Assembly: GCA_040143965.1 (NCBI GenBank)
Contig: JASJQH010000044.1
Location: 1-39,109 of the forward strand
DNA length: 39,109 nucleotides
From: Basidiobolus ranarum
Taxonomy: Eukaryota
Direction of reading: 5' to 3'
Each line of letters begins with the position of its first letter. The first letter of the stretch is position 1. Of this stretch, positions 7,262-26,115 are shown piece by piece. Below the pieces are notes generated by a model that saw nothing but the letters and a program-made list of their open reading frames with translations, searched no databases and was not told where the DNA came from. The position numbers and the translations under genes were made by a program.

Positions 7262-10200
7262 CTAACATGTTTTGGGTGGTAAATTGGCCTCTTCTATGTC
7301 CACTTCATCTTCCAATGACTTTTGCTTCTTGGAAGAATCAAGAGTGACACTAGAGGATCTCTTTCGGCTTCTTCCTCTAGCTATTTTGGAATCAACCATA
7401 GAAATCAATAAATCCGAATATTTTTGCAGCAATAAATGGGTGAATTCAACTTTAGCAGGCTCAGAGCCATCATCCAATCCCAATACTGGGCTATCTCGCT
7501 GTGATTCTCCTGGTGTTGGCAGACCTGAGGAGGATTGCGATAATATGTCGCTAACATCCTCCTCCGAGTCAGCCTCCCGGTTTGGTACCATATCCATGAG
7601 TCGTGTTTGTAACGAAGAGAATCCTTTTTCAATGGCGACAACCAAGCCATCTCGTTCTGCTTTCACCAATTCAGTCTTCAACAAACGTTCGTGGGATTCT
7701 ATTTCTTTTTCCAGAGAATGTTGTAAGGCCAGGATATTACGAAGAGTACGCTCTCTAGGAGACATGGTGGCGTGGGAGGAGAGTGTTTCTTCAGGAACCG
7801 CCATTTCTTTAATCAATGATCTGCGAATTACCGATGGACTATCAGCAAATCTGACTGCAGGTGAATCCAGTTCCATACGATCTACACTTTCCAATCCTAG
7901 TCGGGATCGGAAAGGTGAGAAATTGTCTGATTCACTGAAATTACCCATCTTTCTAGCAGACAAAACACCCATGACACCCAAGGGACGTCTTGCCGAGGTG
8001 GCAACTCTAGGAGTATTTCTGCGTCTGCTGTTTACACTGGTGGGCACAGATTTGGGGGTTAATGGTGAGTCAACAGAGTTTGCTCTTTTGCGCCTAAATG
8101 TGGCTGGTGATTGATGAGGTGTATCGTTGCCTGAGCCCTTCGCTCCATCTTCACCTAAGGAGACAGCAGTGAATTTGTGGACCAATTCTTTTTTCCCAGG
8201 GGTATCTACATCTTTACTACCTGGTATAACCGAAGCGGAAAGGAATTTGGCACTGATACTCTTACGCAAGTCTTCTCTGGTTGCACCACTAGGGCTAGTC
8301 TCAGGACTTTCATCGATGTCAAAGTAATTGTATAAGTGTGCTGCAGGTGTCTTGAATATTTCATCTTCCTCTGAACCAGCATGTTCTTCGGATACATTTT
8401 CCTCTTCAGAATTGGGTTGCACTTTAGCCAACTCCTTGGGATCTTGTACGGTGACTTTAAAAGTAGCGGCAGGTGTCGTTGGATCCAGAGCTTTACGGTC
8501 GACATATACGACGCTGTCCAAAGTTTCGTCTTCAGAAGATTCCTCTTGATCTTTTGTAGGGAAAATTTTGGCGACTATAGGTGAACTACTATTTAGTAAA
8601 CCTCGGATCTGAGTACTATCCTCATCATCGTAGTCCATGTAGGATTCAGGTTCAGGAGTGTAGCGAACATCAGGGATACCCATACGAGCAAAAGGTCTAT
8701 TTGGAGAATCTTCTGAGAAGAGTACAATTCCTCCACCAGCTGCCCTTTGTGCCCATTGACCTCTAAGGACGGCTGGATTGATTAGCTCCGAACGCTTAAC
8801 TGTTGGTAAAGAAGAGCCTCCAACTGCCCATAGTGGAAGATCATTTTCGGCTGATGAAAACTCGGGATCTGGAGGCAGCTCACCAGTTGGGTTGAAAGTG
8901 ATACAATCATCAAGATCTTCATCATCTTGTGGTCCGGTTGAACTCCAAGAAATAGTTTTGGGAGCGTAGATCAATTTATGCTTGTTCAATACCATCTGTC
9001 TGGTCCAAGATGGAGCTAGTTTCCATACGAAGACACATCCATCACCAGATGTAGAGATCAGCTTTGAGCAATCATGCGAGAACTTAACAGAAGTTATTTG
9101 CTCAGAGTGGCCGGATAGTTTAGTGACCATCTCTCCTGATCGAATATCATAAACACGAATGCACTTATCAGAGCAACTAATGGCTACAAATGAGCCCGAT
9201 GGATCCATGGTAACTCTGATGAAATTAGTGTCGGAGCCATTTTCATCCAGAGACTTGGGTCGGTGAGATATCTCTTGCTTTCCAGTTTCCACATTGAATA
9301 CATGGAACCTCTTATCTTGAGTAATAGGTGTGATGTAGTTTTCAGTAGGATCGATGTCCATATCGTAAATGGATGCCTTAGCACAGTGCTTCTTGTAACT
9401 GACAAAATAAGGGGTATCGAAGTGCTCCGATGCTTTTCTAAAGATAATACTTTGATCCGTTGCGGTACTAATTAACACTTGGCCACCCATGGCGAATTTT
9501 GTGGACGTGATTGCCGCTGAATGATCATCCAATGTTTGAATTAGTTTCAACGATTCGTTGACGTCGAATACATGAATCAATCGATCACGACCTGCAGTGG
9601 CTACTAAAAAGCTGTTTTGTTCATAGGGTTTGGAGAAGTCAATGGACAAGATATCCCCATTATGAGCTTCTTGGAAGGCAATCTGTTCCATGGTTGATAA
9701 ATCATGTAATCGAAGATTACCTTCTCTGTCTCCCGATGCAATGTACCTGCCATCGGGACTGATAGACAGGGTTCTTATACCACCAGGCTTACGATTTTGG
9801 ACTTGCGCAGCTGATCCATCATTCGCATCTGAAGTAGCCTTCTTAGGTTGCGCCTTGTCTGTTCCCGTGTAGATGATTTGCAGAAGCTCTCGACTGTAAA
9901 GATTCCTCTTTGAAGAGTTCTTAGCAGATACTACGGAACTAGGGGAACTAGCTTTGTTTGGTGTGGTAATGTTTTGATGAGATACACCATCTAAGTTCCA
10001 GAAACGAATAGTGCCATCAGCCGAGTAAGTAACGAAAGAGTTCTGCGGAACATCGGCTGACTGTGAATTAGATTCAATCACGGTAGAGTCATCGATATTA
10101 GGGAATAGCTCTACACCCCACACACAACTACTGTGGTACAAGAAGCTACGATACTTTCCGATCATATCAAGACTCTTAATATCCCAAATATAAATACTCC

Positions 10201-11421
10201 TGTCACTGTACACACAAGCAACCTTATCACCATCATGGGCAATACGAACAGCCACTGTATCGGGGAAAACATCGGTAGATTCGGGTTCTTGAAGGAAATT
10301 TTGGGTAGTAATATCAACACCTAATGGATGAGGCTTTGGTAGAGTTCCGATGTAACTCAAACTTTCGGGTTCGAACAAGCGTACCACACCATTCTCACAT
10401 CCACAGATGATATACTTCTCATTAATAGAAATGGAATAAGCCTTGCCAACTTGAAGATCGATCCATTTCTCCACAACTCTTTTGTCACCAAATTGGCAGA
10501 GTAACCCGGAGGATGTTAAGAAATAGGTGTAGTTGGCACCATCGGCAGATTTACGTGTAGCGGCATCAATGAATGTATTATTGCTCAAGTCACCAAGTAC
10601 TCCAGGTCTGCCGGTCATGAGCTTCAATTGAGAATTCTTACCACAGTTTGGTTTATCTTCGAAGTACCAATACTTGATGTGACGTAAACCAGCAGTAACA
10701 CAGTAACTACTATCGCTAGCGAAAGTAAGTGCGTGAACTTTGGAACTGACTTTGTTAGAGGCAACTTTAGCACCGGATTTCCAATTCCAAGCGTTCAAAA
10801 ACCCATCATGTTGGAATCCAACTGAAACCAAAATCTTTCCATTTGGTGAGAAAGCGAGATTCAAGATACCATATTTGTGCCCTTTCAACTCGGATACCAG
10901 GGAGTCATTACGCCAATCCCAAACCAAAACTCTTGGTTGAAATCCGGTCTCTCCAACAGCAAGGTGAGTTCCATCTGGTGAAAAAGTCAAACAAGAGATA
11001 GCTTTCGGGGAGTTTATTAATGCCATTTTGGCCTGTGCCTGATTGGGAGTATTCTCAGTATTAGAACTTTCATTGGCGATACTAGCGGCATCGGGGTCGA
11101 CTTGGAGAAAGTGAAGTTGCTTATTTTTTCTATAGTTGTATAGTACAACGGCGCAGCCGGCTGCGTAAGCGACTATATCCTGAGAAGGATGTACAGCAAA
11201 ATTACTATTCTTTGTCGTAGTCAAACCTAGAACATGCTCGAGAACAGCCTGGGTAATTATCATGGGTTTAGTAAAGAAGGCAATGAATACAGTTGAATTG
11301 GATATACCAGCATACGTACATTAGGTGGTTTTGCGTCCTTTCTCTTGCGTTTTGTGGAAGTTGGCAACGGGGGCCGGGAGGGAGTACGTTTTTTAGGGAC
11401 AGGTTCAAAGTAGTTGAACAT
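7262..11421 (-). CDS. MAPKBP1: WD40-repeat protein of the WDR62/MAPKBP1 family, with a long disordered C-terminal half
   Basis: ORF 7262..11263 has family-typical LEHVLGLT, VAYAAGCAVVLY, CVTAGLRHIKYW, LPKPHPLG, CVYSDRSIYIWD, HSSCVWGVE, SGDREGNLR, TAGRDRLIHV and QTLDDHS. A 34-codon upstream exon (ATG 11421, MFNYFEPVPKKRTPSR...KPPN) joins in phase through intron 11249-11319. Confidence 0.88.
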
Positions 11422-11991: not shown

Positions 11992-12920
11992 TTAGTAGCG
12001 GATACCAAACCATTTCTTAGGTTTTTTATCTTGTCGAGTATCATCTTGACTACTATTTGAACAAGAGGGATTTATGGATGTAGATGAAACGTGATCTTTA
12101 GCTAGTGATTTTGCTTTATCAAATGGATGGTCTTTCTCCCATTGTAAGTCTATCTGGTATGCCTGTAGAGCATTCTCCATTATATAGTTGTTAGTAGCCA
12201 TATAGTACTTTGCCTCATTCGGATCAACACATTTACTTAATAGTTGGAATCGTTTGACTGCAGCTTTTAGTTCTGTAAGAGAGTTAAAAAAAGCAAAGAA
12301 AAAATCCACTTTTTTCAAGTCATACCTTCGTCTGGTGTAGGTTCCGACTCGGTGGGTCCAAAATACCCCGGAATCAGAAGATAACGACGAGCGATAACGT
12401 TATTGTCAAACATTCTATTGACTTTCTTTAAATCGGTAATCTGCACCGAAAGTCGAAAGTGTAAGCTGAAAAGTATTCACGTAGATGAAATGAAAATAGG
12501 ACCATCAAGTTTATTTGTTCTTACCTCAACCCCATATTTCAAAGCAATGCCAAACAGAGTATCTTTTGGCTTGACATAATGAACGACATTATCGTCAATG
12601 AAACTACTTTTCTCATCTTTGTCAGTATATTTCTCAGAACCTCCATACTGTGGGAGCTCTTCTTCATAAGGAGGTGGACTGCGAAATTCCTTGGTGTCTA
12701 ATGAGTCTGGATTATTTTCCTGGAGAGGAGGTTGACGTACTTGTAAACATAAAGGACAATATTCCAAAAGGCGAGGATTCTCTGCTAAGCAGCTTGGGCA
12801 TACTATGCGGCTACAGCAGGGAGTAAGGTAAAGATCTTCGAGTTTCAAACTAACTCCAGAAACCGGGTCACACAGTGTTTTTAGCTCTTGGTAGCAGACA
12901 AGACAAGTTGGAGCAACCAT
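11992..12920 (-). CDS. LysM (CBM50) domain protein with N-terminal Cys8 RING-like zinc finger, PY motifs and C-terminal UBA-like domain; 3 exons
   Basis: Exons 12920-12525, 12440-12326 and 12272-11992. LysM: HYVKPKDTLFGIALKYGVE/ITDLKKVNRMFDNNVIARRYLLIP. Zinc finger: CLVC...CC...CPSC...CPLC. PY motifs: PPPY and LPQY. UBA-like: VKRFQLLSKCVDPNEAKYYMATNNYIMENALQAY. Confidence 0.8.
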
Positions 12921-13740: not shown

Positions 13741-15290
13741 ATGATGGCAACCAACACCACCACCCAAACTCAAAAGAGGGTTAGCAAGCCTGATCAAGAA
13801 GTCTATAGAAAAAATCTTGATGAGATTGATGCTAGCATCGAAGCAGTCAAGGAAAAATTGGTAAATAATCCCTTTCTTTTATACCTATTCGAGAAGAGAA
13901 GCCTAAAGTTCAAACAATTTCCGATAGACTCTTATCAAAGAAAAGATTGGCGGTGCCGATAGCAAAGGTCCCAGTGGTGACAGACGTTCCCAATTACTCG
14001 ATAAACTCCAAGAGATTCGCACACAACAAGCTGAGATTAAAAAATCTAAGCAATCTGTTCGCGACCAGATGAACGTTTTCAATGCCAATATCAGGAGAAA
14101 GGTATGTTGTCTATTATATATCTGAGTAAACAGGCTTGGACTAACTGGTGCTCATTTGTGTTCTAAAGGTTGGTGAAATGAAGGATTCCAAGGACAAATC
14201 TCCCTTCAAAACTCTCAAGGAAATTGAAACCCAAATTGAGTAAGCACTCTTTGTTTACCCCTATACCTTGATAATAATCGAAGTACTTAATTGATTTCAT
14301 GGTAGAACTCTAGAAAACCAACTTGAAAGTGGTTCCCTCAAGCTCATTGAGGAGAAACGTGTAGTTAATGAGATCTCCAACCTTAAGAAATCTAGAAAGA
14401 ATGCTGAATCTTTCGAAGCTCAACAGCAATCTATCGACGAAGACAAGAAGAAGATTGAAGAATTAAAAGTACTTCTCGATGACCCTAAGAACAAGGCCTT
14501 AAATGATGAATATAACGCCATTCAAGCCGAACTTGATACCCTCAGCAAGGGACGCGAATCTGAGCGTGCCAAGAGAAACGAATTATTTAATGAACGTAAC
14601 AAACTTCAAAAGGAACTCGATGCTATTTACAACAATAAGCGCGCCGTTCAAGATGCCTATAGAAATGCCAACAATGAATACTACAAATGGCAACAAGAGG
14701 ATCGTACCCGTCGCCAGGAACAATTCCGTTTAAAGAAGCAACAGGAAGTTGAAGAGAAGAAGGCTGCTATTGCTGCTCAAGAAAGAGAATTGGCTGAAGT
14801 CCCAGCATACCTCGATGAAATTAATTCCTGTGATACTCTTCTCAACTATCTTCAACAGTATTCTTCCGATCAATCCGCTGCCGAAAAGACCGAAGAAGTT
14901 AGCGCACCTTCTACCTTGAACATCCGTGAGCCTGACACCAACAACAATGTACCTGAAGGATTTGTTCTCAAGAAGAAGTCCGATGACGAATACTTTGTCG
15001 GTGGCAAAGCATCCAAGAAGAACAAGAATAAGAACAAGAACGAGCCCAAGGCTTCTACTTTCAAGCTTCCTCTTAGTATTATGGAGCAAATGTGGGAGTT
15101 GAAGTTGGACGTCCCTGTTTCTGCTGGTGATGCTGATAAATCTATCGTTGCTATCAAGGAGAAGAAACAATGGTTCAAAGAAAACCAAGAACGCGTCACT
15201 GCTGAAAACAAAGCTAAGGCTGAAGCTAAGATTGCTGCTTTGAACAAAAACCAAGAAACTGCCACTGAAGCTGTCGAAGCCACCAACTAA
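13741..15290 (+). CDS. BFR1: Nuclear segregation protein Bfr1-like coiled-coil mRNP protein; 4 exons
   Basis: KPDQEVYRKNLDEIDASI N-terminus, SPFKTLKEIETQI, LESGSLKLIEEKRVVNEISNLKKSRK, PAYLDEINSCDTLLNY, DEYFVGGK..KK, and WFKENQERVTAENKAKAE. GT-AG introns at 13861-13927, about 14102-14168 and about 14240-14305. Confidence 0.85.
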
Positions 15291-15593
15291 AAAGGGGTAC
15301 TTGTCCTACCAAACAAACCTCACAATTCAAAAAAGCACCATTACATTCTATCTTGTTCAACTAATAATAAAAGTAATGTCTAGACTGCGTATAGGTTCAA
15401 GCTATTCCATTATTAGTCAGTTTTATATATCTTTGCCGTGACAACCTATTTACGATTTAAAGTGTTTTTTCTAAAGAGTGTACTAACGTATATTGGCAAA
15501 TAAGGAGGGGAAAAATTGGGGGATTAAGGGCATATAAAAATTTCATCATAGGAAGGCAGGAAGTGTGGGAAAGTCAACAACAGAGTGGTACAT

Positions 15594-16553
15594 CTATTTG
15601 CACTGTGGTCCAGGTGTATTTGTAATTTCGTTTCCAGTAATGTTTACTCCATAATTGGGCAGAAAGATGGGATGTTGCAAATCTAGATCTCCTATGGAGA
15701 GAACATCTTGTAAATCAGATACTCTATCGGCAGAAGGTGGCCAAGTATCATCTGGATAGCAGCAGAGAAGTTGGCGTCTTGTTTTCAGGAATTTCGCAAG
15801 ATAATCTTTTTCTGACAGATAGCCTTTACTTCCAGTGACTGTGATTATTTTAACAAGATTGATATCAGCTTCATTCATTTGCCAGCCGTGTTGAATGATT
15901 GTGTCATAAAAGATCGCCTTCCCCAGGTTACTCTCGACGCCCACTCTTTTGGCGAACTTTAATGCTGGTGTAAAGTACATATCATCATTGATTTGATCTT
16001 GTATCCCGTTAAAGTTGGAGTTTTTACATGAAGTCGCGGTCCAGGTCTTATCAAAATCAACCAACTCACTTGTGTCATCTCTTTTAGAGTCACATTGAGC
16101 TAGTGTATCTATTTTTTCCAAAGTGGGTATATATTTAGAAAGTGCGGAACGTGGGTTAACCTCTTCATATTTGTGTAGTACCGTCAAAGCGTCTCCGGTC
16201 CCAGTGGTGAAGCCTATTCTGCCGCAAGTGAATCCCCTACCATCGTTAAGTTTTTCACAGGCTGCATATCCGTAGATCTCGTTGCCATTTTCAAATACGT
16301 TAGTGATGATCTCCGCGTATTTTTTAGCTCTTGAAGAGATCTCGGCGATAGGCCATGTCTTGATATTATAAAATTCTCTAGTCATCTTCGCGTTTGGGTT
16401 ACAGTTGGCCTTTTTCGCTACGAATTGGAACTTCCCGCAGTTTTTGGGAGATTTTTCGTATTCTTTCGTGCAAAAAGGGGTTTCTTTTGCCTGCACATTA
16501 GACTGATAAATACTTGGCCAGGCAACCAGTACTAAACAAATGGACTTGAACAT
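15594..16553 (-). CDS. csn: Secreted GH46 chitosanase (copy 1), intronless
   Basis: VFENG (catalytic Glu), EKLNDGRGFTCGRIGFTTGTGDAL (catalytic Asp and Thr) and IFYDTIIQHG closely match the Bacillus subtilis Csn-type motif as I recall it. The N-terminus is moderately hydrophobic and is a likely signal peptide. Confidence 0.9.
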   Translation of the reverse strand: MFKSICLVLVAWPSIYQSNVQAKETPFCTKEYEKSPKNCGKFQFVAKKANCNPNAKMTREFYNIKTWPIAEISSRAKKYAEIITNVFENGNEIYGYAACEKLNDGRGFTCGRIGFTTGTGDALTVLHKYEEVNPRSALSKYIPTLEKIDTLAQCDSKRDDTSELVDFDKTWTATSCKNSNFNGIQDQINDDMYFTPALKFAKRVGVESNLGKAIFYDTIIQHGWQMNEADINLVKIITVTGSKGYLSEKDYLAKFLKTRRQLLCCYPDDTWPPSADRVSDLQDVLSIGDLDLQHPIFLPNYGVNITGNEITNTPGPQCK

Positions 16554-17127
16554 ATGAATTGGGTTTAAGCGGTTGTTCGGTATTTAAAGGTTTGAATTAA
16601 GCTTCGACTGCTCCGTTAAGTCTTCACCTTCCCTAATATATACTACGACTTGGATGTACTAGTGAGGTAGGAGAAATCCCCCTTATAGAGCGATACTTAT
16701 GTAAAATGATGCTGAGCATCTAAGGTGATAATAAATCTCGGGAATTGAGAAGCCCCTACTTTCTGCCTCAAGGGACATTATCCAAACGGTTGTGGAAATT
16801 CATTCGTCAACTACCGACGGAGATTTTCTTCCAGTCTATACATAGTGAGGATTCGACCTGCTATCTCGGAAATATTGGAAAGCTTTAGTGATTCTCGGTA
16901 AATTCCTAGCACCATGTGTACCTTGCATACGGAATCTGCTAGTCGCTGATCCAGAGATAATATCTTACTAGATAAATGAATGATGTCATACGTCCACTTC
17001 CGATAGCTAAACTGGATTTTATCCCTGTTCAAGCAATTCGGTCAAAGTAAAAGAGCCAGAACAAGGTTTATGTGAGATTTTATTGACTTGTATCTTACAT
17101 TTTGAATATCTAACAAAACTCTGATAT

Positions 17128-18090
17128 CTAATAACCCTTACATAGTGGGCTCTTTTTGTTTACCTTTTCTTTTCCCGTTACTGTGGCCCCGTAGTTTGGC
17201 AGTTTTAATGGCCGTGTTAGGTTTAGATCATTCGATGTTACTTTCTCTTTAAGAACTGATTGTAGATCAACAATTCTATCTGCTGATTGTGGCCATGTGT
17301 TGTCGGGATAACAGCAAAGCATCTGACGCCTAATGAGTAGGAATTTGGAAAGATATTCAGCCTCTGTTAGGTTTCCTCTTTGACCAGTTAGGTTCATTAT
17401 TCGGACAATATTGATTTCCTCTTCATTCACTTGCCATCCATGCTGAACGATGGTATCGTAAAAGATCGATTTACCAAGATTTGTCTCCAAAGATACGCTT
17501 TTCGCAAATTTCATTGCTGGCGTGAAGTACATATCGTCATTGACATTATCTTGTGCTAGCCTAAAGCTGGCATCTTTACAAGCAGTTTGGATCCATACTT
17601 TGTCGAAGCTCTCAAGTCCTGTAGTGCCATTTCTCTTATTGTCACAAAGACTGAGCTGATCCAACTCCTTTAGACGCTCAGTGTATTTACTGAGCGCTGA
17701 AGGTTTCGTGGTACCTTCACTGTGTTTGTTAATCACCACCAATGCATCCCCAGTTCCAGTAGTAAATCCAACTCTACCACATGTATAACCTCTCTTGTCT
17801 CCCAAGATTTCGCAGTTGGGATAACCAAACACGGTGTTCCCATTTTCAAATACATTTGTAATTATTTGTGCTTTAAGTTTACCTTCCTTTGAGATGTTCG
17901 CCGCCGGCCAGTCTTTAAGATCGTAAAACCTTTGATCCGGTGGGATATCCTTACATTTGGCTGATGTAAATGCGAATTTAGAACAATTTTCTGGAGTATT
18001 GGCATACTCTTTCTGACAGAAATTCTCCTCCGCCAGTGCAGAAGCTGCTAGTGCCACAAGGATAAGTAGAGAAGGGAGGCTGTATGTCAT
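17128..18090 (-). CDS. csn: Secreted GH46 chitosanase (copy 2), intronless
   Basis: VFENG...EILGDKRGYTCGRVGFTTGTGDAL...IFYDTIVQHG, with a clear signal peptide MTYSLPSLLILVALAASALA. Collinear paralogue of copy 1. Confidence 0.92.
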   Translation of the reverse strand: MTYSLPSLLILVALAASALAEENFCQKEYANTPENCSKFAFTSAKCKDIPPDQRFYDLKDWPAANISKEGKLKAQIITNVFENGNTVFGYPNCEILGDKRGYTCGRVGFTTGTGDALVVINKHSEGTTKPSALSKYTERLKELDQLSLCDNKRNGTTGLESFDKVWIQTACKDASFRLAQDNVNDDMYFTPAMKFAKSVSLETNLGKSIFYDTIVQHGWQVNEEEINIVRIMNLTGQRGNLTEAEYLSKFLLIRRQMLCCYPDNTWPQSADRIVDLQSVLKEKVTSNDLNLTRPLKLPNYGATVTGKEKVNKKSPLCKGY

Positions 18091-18666
18091 CTCTGAATGA
18101 GTTGCTTTACAACATCATTGCTCCCCTCTCATTATATATTTGACTGTTGGATTGTCTAATCCTGTCAATAATCAATTGTACTCCACGAAATAGTCTACAT
18201 ACTGGTGCGAACTCATTGGACGTTCTTTCATTTTCGTTTAATAATTACCAAACCAGGAATTGATCAGCTTCATTCTAGCCCAATCAAGTAAATCAATAAT
18301 AAAGTATATTTCATTAAGGAAGTATACCAGGTTAGCAGATATCCTGGTTAATTCGATGGCATAATCCATAAACTCAAACCTGCAAGGTGTGAGGAGAAGG
18401 AAAGGAGAGGGTACAGAGCAATTGATTGTGAACAGTGGAGCATACGAATTAAGGTTTCCATTTGAAGAATCCATCATTTAGGTACTAATTGGTTTCAATT
18501 TTGTATACAAATGAGCGTTTCTACCGGGTCACTTGGTGGGAATTGTACTTTGCATGAAACACACATTGTCTTGAATTCAATTGACTAATACACGTTTAAT
18601 GTTGAAAAATAAACAAACAATTTACATTGGTCAAGTAGTAAAAGAAATCATTCATAGTCGGGATAC

Positions 18667-19218
18667 TCATTTTAACAAAGCCATTTCTACTGCAGCGGCT
18701 CCCCAGTCTTCTCCGTGGTTATGCCCCTTGTTGCTTCCCTTGCCCATACCAGCTCTCTCTAAAGCCTGGTCATCGGTGAGACAAGTAAGAACTCCAAAAA
18801 TAACCGGTATTCCGGTATCGAGTCCAACACGCATGAGTCCTTGACTAACTGCGTCACAGATATATTCAAAGTGCATGGTACTGCCTTTAATCAGGACTCC
18901 AATACAAATAACTGCGTCAAAGGGACGTTCAGTATCCTCCTCGGGAGTGGTACCACCTAATAGATCATTATTGGTGACAGATTGAACTTGAGAGTTACTA
19001 ATTAGACGCTTGGCTGCGAAAGGAAGCTCATAAGAACCAGACACTTCCTTAGTCACGATATTTTCTGCTTTGACATTATACTTGGAGACCATGGTGTCAT
19101 GAGCCCCTTTAACTAAACCGTCCACTATTTCTTTGTTCCAACGGGCATGAACGATAAGTACGCGAAGATTAGAACCATCATGGCTTTGAGTTGATGAGGC
19201 GACACCCTTTTCGAACAT
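18667..19218 (-). CDS. RIB4: 6,7-dimethyl-8-ribityllumazine synthase (riboflavin biosynthesis)
   Basis: [42 protein letters not shown] and [15 protein letters not shown]; fungal type with an internal insertion. Confidence 0.96.
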
Positions 19219-24818: not shown

Positions 24819-25302
24819 TATGCCTCAGATCAGAAGGTTCAAAGAGTATCAAGAAAAGTACAATCCAAAAAGGTAGCTACTCTCACTTAAACGAATCACA
24901 ATATAACAACCAAAAATAAATTACTTATCGCGAGTAATTTACGCGAACTAATATACAACTCGCGATCCAAACAAATCTCCCTATAATATAGGATTAAATT
25001 ACTGTAGTCATTGGATGCGAATGATGTCCAAGTCTATAATTTATCTAGAATAATATCGAATTCGGTAATAATAGCCTAAAAAATTGCTTCCTCTACCAAA
25101 TCACTGATCGGATATTAAATCCTCAATTGACCTGATAAATCTTTACCGAATGTTTATCATCATTATCTGCACAATAAAGGAAGTAGATTACATGAACCAA
25201 GTTTTGAAAAACGTTAAGACTATAATTACACCCATCAATAATATGAGATTCGATTTATTTATCTTATAAAAGGTTAGAGATGGACTTATACAATCCGTCG
25301 AA

Positions 25303-26115
25303 TTAGTATTCACGAGAGTATTGTTTGCCGTTTTCTTATTGACGACCAGCTCCGGAACCATAACGGTTGCGGGGGAATTCTTCATTATCGTTACGTTGGC
25401 CAGCTCCACGGCCATAACGGCGGTTGCGGGGATATTCTTCATCATCTTCATATTGACGGCCTGAGCCACGGCCATAGCGGCGGTTGCGAGGATATTCCTC
25501 ATCATCTTCATATTGACGGCCTGAACCACGGCCATAACGGCGGTTGCGAGGATATTCATCATCATCTTCGTATTGACGGCCTGAACCGCGTCCATAACGG
25601 CGGTTACGAGGATATTCCTCATCATCTTCGTATTGGCGACCTGAACCACGGCCATAACGGCGGTTTCGAGGATATTCTTCATCATCATCCTATTGACGCC
25701 CCGATCCACCTCCTTATCTGCGGTTGCGAGGATATTCTTCATCATCCTCATATTGACGGCCTGAACCGCGTCCATAACGGCGGTTACGAGGATATTCCTC
25801 ATCATCTTCGTATTGGCGACCTGAACCACGTCCATAACGGCGGTTGCGAGGATATTCTTCATTATCGTTATGCTGGTGGCTTGAACCACGACCATAACGG
25901 CGGTTGCGAGGATATTCCTCATCATCTTCGAATTGACGACCTGATCCGCGACCATAGCGACGATTACGAGGATATTCATCTTGGTCACCGAATCGGTTGT
26001 TGTTGCCAGAGTGATGTCCATTGCGTTCATTTCTTCTATTCAAACCTTTCTCGTGTTTATCGTCATGATGGTGACGACTATGGTGGTTAGAGAACGAAGA
26101 TTTTGAGAAAGTCAT
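25303..26115 (-). CDS. Tandem-repeat, highly charged low-complexity protein (20-aa unit EEYPRNRRYGRGSGRQYEDD), interrupted by in-frame stops; possible pseudogene or assembly error
   Basis: ATG 26115 with a TATATATA element at about 26173-26181. The frame continues in register through the whole array, but has TAA at 25714-16, TAG at 25690-92 and TAA at 25336-38, with a further TAA at 25303-05. Variation between units is mostly synonymous in this frame. Confidence 0.6.
25336..25980 (-). repeat. Coding tandem repeat (minisatellite), 60-bp unit, about 10 full copies plus one partial
   Basis: Near-identical consecutive 60-nt lines from 25381 to 25980. Confidence 0.97.

What the first reader, a model, noticed from the sequence alone, without database searches (positions are those of the whole stretch)
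15594..18090. Tandem pair of intronless bacterial-type GH46 chitosanases: probable HGT followed by duplication
Seen: two adjacent same-strand paralogues, both intronless, each with FENG-x-D(G/K)RG(F/Y)TCGRxGFTTGTGD and YDTIxQHG, inserted between the housekeeping genes BFR1 and RIB4. Known: GH46 is mainly bacterial and chloroviral, while typical fungal chitosanases are GH75. The 16-residue Glu-Asp spacing and the TCGRxGFTT string match B. subtilis Csn as I recall it. Inference: acquired from bacteria and used to remodel the host's own chitosan wall or to attack other fungi or arthropod material. Lack of introns is weak evidence alone, because RIB4 and the ATS1-like gene are also intronless.
Basis: partly seen in the sequence, partly recalled or inferred. 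Interest (0 to 1): 0.75.

Follow-up and report, generated by a model that had tools for sequence, protein, structure and literature searches.

The report
Two ordinary fungal-lineage GH46 chitosanase genes
These are two real, neighbouring chitosan-cutting enzyme genes of a gut fungus (Basidiobolus), but they belong to an old family shared by many early-diverging fungi, not to a recent gene transfer from bacteria.

Summary
Two intronless minus-strand ORFs (17128-18090, 320 aa; 15594-16553, 319 aa; 55% identical) encode GH46 chitosanases with intact catalytic Glu/Asp/Arg/Thr and a GH46 fold. The reading 'bacterial transfer here, then duplication' is not supported. The host is Basidiobolus, and its genome holds 18 GH46 genes. 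All 26 organism-named hits of the first homologue search are fungal. Trees place both genes in a cysteine-rich clade of Mucoromycota, Zoopagales and Basidiobolus (UFBoot 99/SH-aLRT 93), and grouping them with bacteria is rejected (p-AU 7e-7 to 2e-4). B. meristosporus has an orthologue of each gene, and a collinear duplicate block keeps one beside the same neighbour, so the pair is old. Zygomycete GH46 genes are in print since 2011. An ancient bacterial or viral origin of the whole clade stays likely but unrooted. Most likely function: secreted inverting endo-chitosanases. Side result: chytrids and Kickxellomycotina carry a different GH46 lineage.

The parts
17128..18090 (-). GH46 chitosanase A (P0002, 320 aa): predicted signal peptide about 1-20, Cys-rich N-terminal extension about 21-64, catalytic domain about 65-300 with E82, D98, R100, T103 and the D212/R254/R272 network, vicinal C259-C260; no hydrophobic C-terminal tail
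   Evidence: orthologue P0003 in B. meristosporus, 76%
15594..16553 (-). GH46 chitosanase B (P0001, 319 aa): same layout, E88, D104, R106, T109, C264-C265; shorter hydrophobic N-terminus
   Evidence: 76% identical to the copy on G000 C300; partial orthologue P0221 in B. meristosporus, 79%
16554..17127 (.). 574-bp spacer between the two genes; no long repeat and no ORF of 100 aa or more
   Evidence: two short direct-repeat families and five 14-19 nt inverted pairs over 15250-18700, at chance level
13741..15290 (+). Convergent neighbour: three-intron eukaryotic gene, about 443-449 aa (BFR1-like by recall only); its duplicate lies beside the GH46 copy on C300 in the same arrangement
18667..19218 (-). 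Upstream neighbour RIB4, lumazine synthase; one match in the genome

Best explanation
Both genes are native, long-inherited members of a cysteine-rich fungal GH46 subfamily (Mucoromycota + Zoopagales + Basidiobolus) that Basidiobolus has expanded to at least 18 copies. The pair arose by an old tandem duplication, before the split from B. meristosporus. Each encodes a secreted endo-beta-1,4-chitosanase that works by the GH46 inverting mechanism: Glu82/88 is the general acid, Asp98/104 the base, Thr103/109 positions the water and Arg100/106 tunes the base. Shown: sequence, family, residues, fold, clade. Inferred: secretion, disulfides, activity. Biological use is a guess: lacking the anchor-like tail that 7 of the 18 copies have, these two are probably released to digest outside chitosan (deacetylated arthropod chitin, walls of other fungi; about 55%) rather than mainly to loosen or recycle the fungus's own wall (about 40%); both may hold. 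The subfamily probably came from bacteria or a virus very early in fungal history (about 65%, not shown).
For: Family and fold: Pfam; AlphaFold model pLDDT 91.2; all 13 Foldseek matches at E<=0.001 are chitosanases, best B. subtilis MY002, TM 0.85 by target. Residues map to those tested by mutagenesis in PMC4663542 Table 1. Relatives: 26 of 26 organism-named hits fungal; best alignments to non-Basidiobolus clade members 46-54% identity, 241-257 bits, against 38-42%, 149-174 bits outside the clade. Trees: SH 97 (82 of 318 rows), SH-aLRT 97 (41 of 76), UFBoot 99/SH-aLRT 93 (24 of 46). Vicinal Cys-Cys in 78 of 82 clade rows (4 are fragments without that region) and 1 of 236 outside. AU tests reject grouping with Bacillota (p 6.7e-7), actinobacteria (1.7e-6) or all 16 non-fungal rows (2.2e-4). 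Age: synonymous sites between A and B saturated (pS 0.79); B against its C300 copy dN/dS about 0.06; orthologues of both in B. meristosporus. GC 41% and GC3 0.38-0.41 lie within the neighbours' 0.32-0.46.
Against: The backbone inside the fungal clade is weak: the data reject neither the window group as the clade's earliest branch (p 0.25) nor Basidiobolus monophyly (p 0.09). The trees are unrooted and hold no chlorovirus, Pythium or cluster D sequence. The 76-row mixture-model search did not finish; only its quick tree was seen. All 18 copies are single frames, which a transfer would also predict. No expression or activity data. Signal peptides and tails rest on hydropathy only.
Confidence: 0.87

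Rival explanations
1. Recent or Basidiobolus-specific transfer of a bacterial GH46 into this locus, followed by tandem duplication.
For: Basidiobolus is reported to be rich in bacterial transfers, 2-5% of genes, 61% of them intronless (PMC7466969 passages). Both genes lack introns. The closest solved structure is B. subtilis Csn.
Against: Fungal proteins score far higher than bacterial ones; AU tests reject bacterial grouping; clade-specific cysteines are shared with Mucorales and Zoopagales; 36% of native genes are intronless in the same paper, and the window has a 4-kb intronless native WD40 gene.
Confidence: 0.04
2. The cysteine-rich clade entered one zygomycete lineage from bacteria and spread among fungi partly by fungus-to-fungus transfer, so its breadth overstates its age.
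For: Patchy range: Kickxellomycotina carry a different lineage that groups with chytrids (UFBoot 100/SH-aLRT 99). No hit named Mortierella, Glomeromycotina or Entomophthorales appeared. Zoopagales are parasites of Mucorales (recall). One basidiomycete-labelled protein (Athelia sp. TMB) nests in the Mucoromycota branch.
Against: The Mucoromycota branch is ordered Calcarisporiella/Bifiguratus, Jimgerdemannia, Mucorales, with two old paralogue lines. The searches depend on shared words and are capped, so absences are weak.
Confidence: 0.07
3. Assembly chimera or bacterial contamination.
For: The assembly is fragmented (13,754 contigs), and reads were not examined.
Against: A second contig carries a 76% identical copy beside the same intron-bearing neighbour in the same gene order; orthologues exist in another species; base composition matches.
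Confidence: 0.01
4. The proteins keep the GH46 fold but act on another substrate, such as highly acetylated chitosan or peptidoglycan.
For: The substrate-contact loop of Streptomyces N174 (E197, H200, D201) aligns to the fungal CCYPD loop and is not conserved there. NCBI names many members 'lysozyme-like'. No fungal member has been assayed in the papers I found.
Against: All four catalytic positions, the -2 subsite Asp (D115), QHG and the Asp-Arg-Arg network are kept; GH46 is described as holding only chitosanases (PMC3032700 passage).
Confidence: 0.06

Closest known systems
Zygomycete GH46 proteins in print: two in Rhizopus oryzae (PMC3032700), two in Lichtheimia ramosa with 10 and 12 cysteines (PMC4663542), Rhizomucor miehei (PMC4023604), Mucor circinelloides (PMC13301921)
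   Same: Same family and, for Rhizopus and Mucor, the same clade in my trees; same cysteine richness (10 and 11 Cys here).
   Different: Basidiobolus has 18 copies against two in R. oryzae; this pair forms its own branch. Lichtheimia and Rhizomucor sequences were not in my set.
Bacillus subtilis Csn (PDB 7C6C/7C6D; cluster B of PMC4663542)
   Same: Fold (TM 0.85), 16-residue Glu-Asp spacing, D-x-RG-x-TCGR-x-GFTT string.
   Different: 32% identity in the structural alignment; no N-terminal Cys-rich extension, no Cys-Cys loop; grouping with Bacillota rejected.
Streptomyces N174 CsnN174 (PDB 1CHK; cluster A)
   Same: Catalytic E22/D40/R42/T45 and D145/R190/R205 have counterparts.
   Different: 18-residue Glu-Asp spacing; the loop with E197/H200/D201 differs.
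GH46 of Kickxellomycotina and chytrids (Coemansia, Linderina, Ramicandelaber, Synchytrium, Polychytrium); 'numerous GH46' noted in PMC9866270
   Same: Fungal GH46 proteins, often multi-copy.
   Different: A separate clade without the vicinal Cys-Cys, about 30% identical to P0002.
GH46 of mycoparasitic Pythium, proposed transfer from chloroviruses (PMC7720654)
   Same: Eukaryotic GH46 with a proposed foreign origin and a role against fungal walls.
   Different: Restricted to two species there; here shared across two fungal phyla. Those sequences were not compared.

Membership tests
GH46 chitosanase | Match to PF01374 above the curated cut-off | tested here: met
   150 and 131 bits against a cut-off of 27, over nearly the whole profile
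GH46 chitosanase | Two-lobed lysozyme-like alpha fold | tested here: met
   Model of P0002, pLDDT 91; Foldseek TM 0.85 to 7C6D. P0001 was not folded on its own
GH46 chitosanase | Catalytic Glu, Asp, Arg, Thr and the Asp-Arg-Arg network | tested here: met
   All present in both proteins
GH46 chitosanase | Endo-hydrolysis of chitosan with inversion | not testable with these tools
   Needs an assay
Cysteine-rich zygomycete GH46 clade | Falls inside the clade | tested here: met
   position within the clade unresolved
Cysteine-rich zygomycete GH46 clade | Vicinal Cys-Cys loop and N-terminal cysteines | tested here: met
   C259/C260 in 75 of 75 rows (rows were chosen by this motif); C25 in 50 of 51, C36 in 51 of 51, C46 in 44 of 44 filled rows; unselected count
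Recently transferred bacterial gene | Best hits and sister group bacterial | tested here: not met
Recently transferred bacterial gene | Absent from related fungi | tested here: not met
   36 Mucoromycota, 9 Zoopagales and 7 B. meristosporus rows in the clade
Recently transferred bacterial gene | Foreign base composition | tested here: not met
   weak test, since PMC7466969 found little compositional signal in its own candidates
Anciently transferred gene family | Fungal clade nested within bacteria in a rooted tree | tested here: inconclusive
   Nearest rows are unnamed and weakly supported; no root; no chlorovirus or cluster D rows
Secreted protein | N-terminal signal peptide | tested here: inconclusive
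   Hydrophobic N-termini, best 8-residue hydropathy 3.4 and 3.0; no dedicated predictor was available

The most novel reading that the evidence does not exclude
The pair marks an unrecognised, biochemically untested GH46 subfamily of zygomycete fungi. It is stapled by disulfides (C171 and C317 co-occur in 60 of 60 cases among 63 rows), has an ordered N-terminal extension and a rebuilt substrate loop, and may cut chitosan in a new acetylation pattern. Basidiobolus has diversified it into free, anchor-tailed and signal-less forms. Fungi would then hold two separate GH46 lineages, this one and a chytrid + Kickxellomycotina one, whose split cuts across the phylum Zoopagomycota and implies two ancient acquisitions, or one followed by reciprocal loss.
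Probability: 0.45. Interest if true: 0.42.

Novelty: new member of a known kind. Interest (0 to 1): 0.22.

Why it matters
As a recent-transfer story it does not matter: the genes are ordinary members of a family already recorded in zygomycete genomes. The residual value is modest. I found no phylogeny or assay of fungal GH46 in nine literature searches, so the two-lineage pattern, the 18-copy expansion in a gut fungus, and a disulfide-rich secreted chitosanase scaffold would interest specialists in cell walls of early fungi and in chitosan-oligomer enzymology.

Tried and rejected
Recent bacterial transfer: rejected by hits, trees and AU tests. Chimera: rejected by the collinear duplicate block and orthologues; reads were not examined. 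Mobile-element signature around the pair: none. Viral relatives: a viral-contig scan confirmed 0 of 35 pattern matches, but its patterns were fungal-biased; annotated phages gave 30 Streptomyces phage records at about 27-30% identity in the 20 rows shown; plasmids gave 6 actinobacterial records at 29-34%. Genome contigs gave 8 loci at 30-38%. GH75 in the own genome: no match, but the control was silent too, so inconclusive. The careful 76-row mixture tree did not finish in two runs; I used a 46-row LG+G4 tree instead. Single origin of both fungal clades: not rejected (p 0.27), not shown. dS dating of the C44/C300 duplication is rough: 0.9-1.4 for three flanking exons, one more saturated, 2.5 for GH46, and the BFR1-like exon failed on a frame slip. 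The BFR1 name could not be confirmed. Disulfides could not be measured because model coordinates are not exposed. Earlier scan notes: nothing found.

Full report
1. Observation. The window holds two minus-strand single-frame genes, A at 17128-18090 (P0002, 320 aa) and B at 15594-16553 (P0001, 319 aa), 574 bp apart. They align at 55% identity over 301 residues, and each matches Pfam GH46 far above the cut-off. RIB4 is confirmed. The other neighbour is a eukaryotic gene that opens with three GT-AG introns; the name BFR1 is recalled and unconfirmed. GC and GC3 match the neighbours.

2. Host and copy number. A protein search and a Pfam search of the own genome each gave the same 18 places, 18 of 18 candidates scored. 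In all 18 the catalytic domain lies in one open frame. The copy on contig C300 reads the same as P0004, which NCBI names Basidiobolus ranarum, so the host is taken to be Basidiobolus. Twelve of the 18 fall into six reciprocal pairs at 70-82% identity, and four of these pairs share flanking sequence within the 1.5 kb fetched or, for C300, along the contig. C300 is collinear with the window: P-type ATPase, SNF2 remnant, GH46 of type B, BFR1-like gene, class V aminotransferase. It shows no type A gene and no RIB4. This points to an old large-scale duplication; PMC3281927 (abstract and passages) only suggests gene or genome duplication in B. ranarum. Gene B therefore sat beside its neighbour before that event, and it is under purifying selection (dN/dS about 0.06 with dS near saturation).

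3. Age of the tandem. Synonymous sites between A and B are saturated (pS 0.79). B. meristosporus has an orthologue of A (P0003, 76%) and a partial orthologue of B (P0221, 79% over 138 aa). Both are listed with a longest contig of 287,976 bases, which suggests one scaffold; adjacency was not shown. A, B and these relatives form one branch (UFBoot 100/SH-aLRT 99).

4. Relatives. Of 38 hits in the first search, 2 are the window's, 26 carry an organism name and all 26 are fungal; the lowest 7 are unnamed or just 'chitosanase', at 27-39%. The exhaustive representative search found 901 proteins at E<=0.001; 8 of the 10 top ones that I looked up carry names, all fungal, and named bacteria begin near 128-130 bits. 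Profile searches added more fungi and named bacteria. The Atlas's two best clusters by features are 100% eukaryotic, mostly Zoopagomycota.

5. Trees. The FastTree set had 318 rows. Left out were 7 B. ranarum proteins taken as duplicates of own-genome loci (checked by eye for 4), about 16 near-duplicates, and rows covering under 170 (first set) or 150 (second set) profile columns, with 5 fragments kept. Eighty-two rows form one clade (SH 97): 18 own, 36 Mucoromycota, 9 Zoopagales, 7 B. meristosporus, 1 Athelia and 11 unnamed; no named bacterium. A vicinal Cys-Cys occurs in 78 of these 82 (4 fragments lack the region) and in 1 of the 236 others, 15 of which have a gap there. A 76-row mixture-model quick tree gives SH-aLRT 97 (the careful run did not finish). 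A 46-row careful LG+G4 tree gives 99/93, or 87/97 without the unnamed basal row. On those 46 rows AU tests reject the window group with 4 Bacillota (p 6.7e-7), with 2 actinobacteria (1.7e-6) or with all 16 non-fungal rows, which include a mite and unnamed rows (2.2e-4). They do not reject the window group as the first branch of the clade (0.25), Basidiobolus monophyly (0.09) or a union of the two fungal clades (0.27). The Mucoromycota part is ordered Calcarisporiella/Bifiguratus, Jimgerdemannia, Mucorales, much as I recall the species tree; PMC10079182 (passages) calls Calcarisporiella an early split. Chytrids and Kickxellomycotina form a second clade (100/99). No chlorovirus, Pythium or cluster D sequence was available and the trees have no root, so the donor and direction of any ancient transfer are open. 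PMC4663542 places the Lichtheimia proteins near clusters C and D, whereas my profile matches cluster B structures far better than cluster D (E 1.5e-62 against 1e-8 to 1e-9).

6. How it works. The AlphaFold model of A has pLDDT 91 and pTM 0.88, with residues 21-64 ordered. All 13 Foldseek matches at E<=0.001 are chitosanases. Mapped on Table 1 of PMC4663542 (section 4.1 and passages), E82 is the acid, D98 the base, T103 positions water, R100 tunes the base, D115 is the -2 subsite, and D212/R254/R272 form the stabilising network. Both proteins keep all of them. The inverting endo mechanism follows from established GH46 work; it is inferred, not measured. The loop that carries E197/H200/D201 in N174 is replaced by CCYPD, so subsite preference may differ. 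C171 and C317 co-occur perfectly (60 with both, 3 with neither; related rows are not independent), which suggests a disulfide. Both proteins have hydrophobic N-termini and no hydrophobic tail. Of the 18 copies, 7 have a hydrophobic C-terminus like a GPI signal, 2 lack a signal-like start, 1 is cut by a contig end, and 2 have lost the catalytic Arg. I therefore favour released enzymes acting on outside chitosan (about 55%) over own-wall remodelling (about 40%). [quoted passage not shown]

7. What is known. GH46 genes in zygomycetes are in print: PMC3032700 (two in R. oryzae, no GH75, only distantly related to bacterial enzymes), PMC4023604 (passage), PMC4663542 (two Cys-rich Lichtheimia proteins, uncharacterised in 2015), PMC9866270 (passage), PMC13301921 (passages), and one chytrid entry in a table of PMC6690862. 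PMC7466969 (passages) defines Basidiobolus transfer candidates as genes with no fungal hits, a test these genes would fail against the fungal hits found here. PMC7720654 (passages) covers Pythium. Nine searches turned up no phylogeny or assay of fungal GH46 and nothing on Basidiobolus GH46. The library lacks most subscription papers and I read no supplements; CAZyme tables in the supplements of PMC9866270 or PMC9391592 (search listing only) may already count these genes.

8. Verdict. Real genes, right family, but the surprising claim fails. They are new members of a known kind, interest 0.22. The boldest reading left is an untested, disulfide-rich zygomycete subfamily and two separate GH46 lineages in fungi (probability 0.45, interest 0.42). 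A read-level check of the assembly remains open.

Noticed in passing
G000 C300 (L019, L020) against window 5.2-29.2 kb: Collinear duplicate block (P-type ATPase, decayed SNF2, GH46, BFR1-like, aminotransferase) at 67-81% DNA identity with gene loss; with six GH46 pairs at 70-82% it suggests an old whole-genome duplication or hybridisation in Basidiobolus.
   Followed up: partly
L013:1381-2367 and L016:1444-2451: A pair of GH46 copies without a signal-like N-terminus, with Glu for the -2 subsite Asp; each lies near a gene with weak AA9/LPMO_10 hits below cut-off (AA11-like by recall).
   Followed up: partly
L006, L008, L009, L010, L012, L014, L018: Seven GH46 copies end in a hydrophobic tail like a GPI-anchor signal; L014 and L018 have lost the catalytic Arg.
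   Followed up: partly
P0008: A GH46 labelled Athelia sp. TMB (a basidiomycete) nests inside the Mucoromycota branch: contamination of that assembly or fungus-to-fungus transfer.
   Followed up: no
P0181, P0075, P0151, P0175, P0280-P0327: Kickxellomycotina and chytrid GH46 proteins form their own clade apart from other Zoopagomycota; some Coemansia hits are about twice the usual length.
   Followed up: partly
P0314: A chitosanase-like GH46 of the mite Dermatophagoides pteronyssinus, on a 5.9-Mb contig, falls outside both fungal clades among bacterial and unnamed rows.
   Followed up: no
P0049, P0115, P0279: Unnamed metagenomic proteins with the Cys-Cys loop form the deepest branch of the clade; their host would help to date it.
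   Followed up: no
window 25188-26115 (-): Tandem repeat coding region (units such as DDEEYPRNRRYGRGSGRQYE) with long open frames in two overlapping phases and no Pfam match.
   Followed up: no
window 12477-12920 (-): Small Cys-rich gene with a partial LysM match at the end of the frame, probably continued after an intron.
   Followed up: no
window 7262-11263 (-): Intronless 1333-aa MABP1/WDR62-like WD40 gene, showing that long native genes here can lack introns.
   Followed up: no
L050 and hits H1-H20: Thirty Streptomyces phage records carry GH46-like glycoside hydrolases.
   Followed up: no
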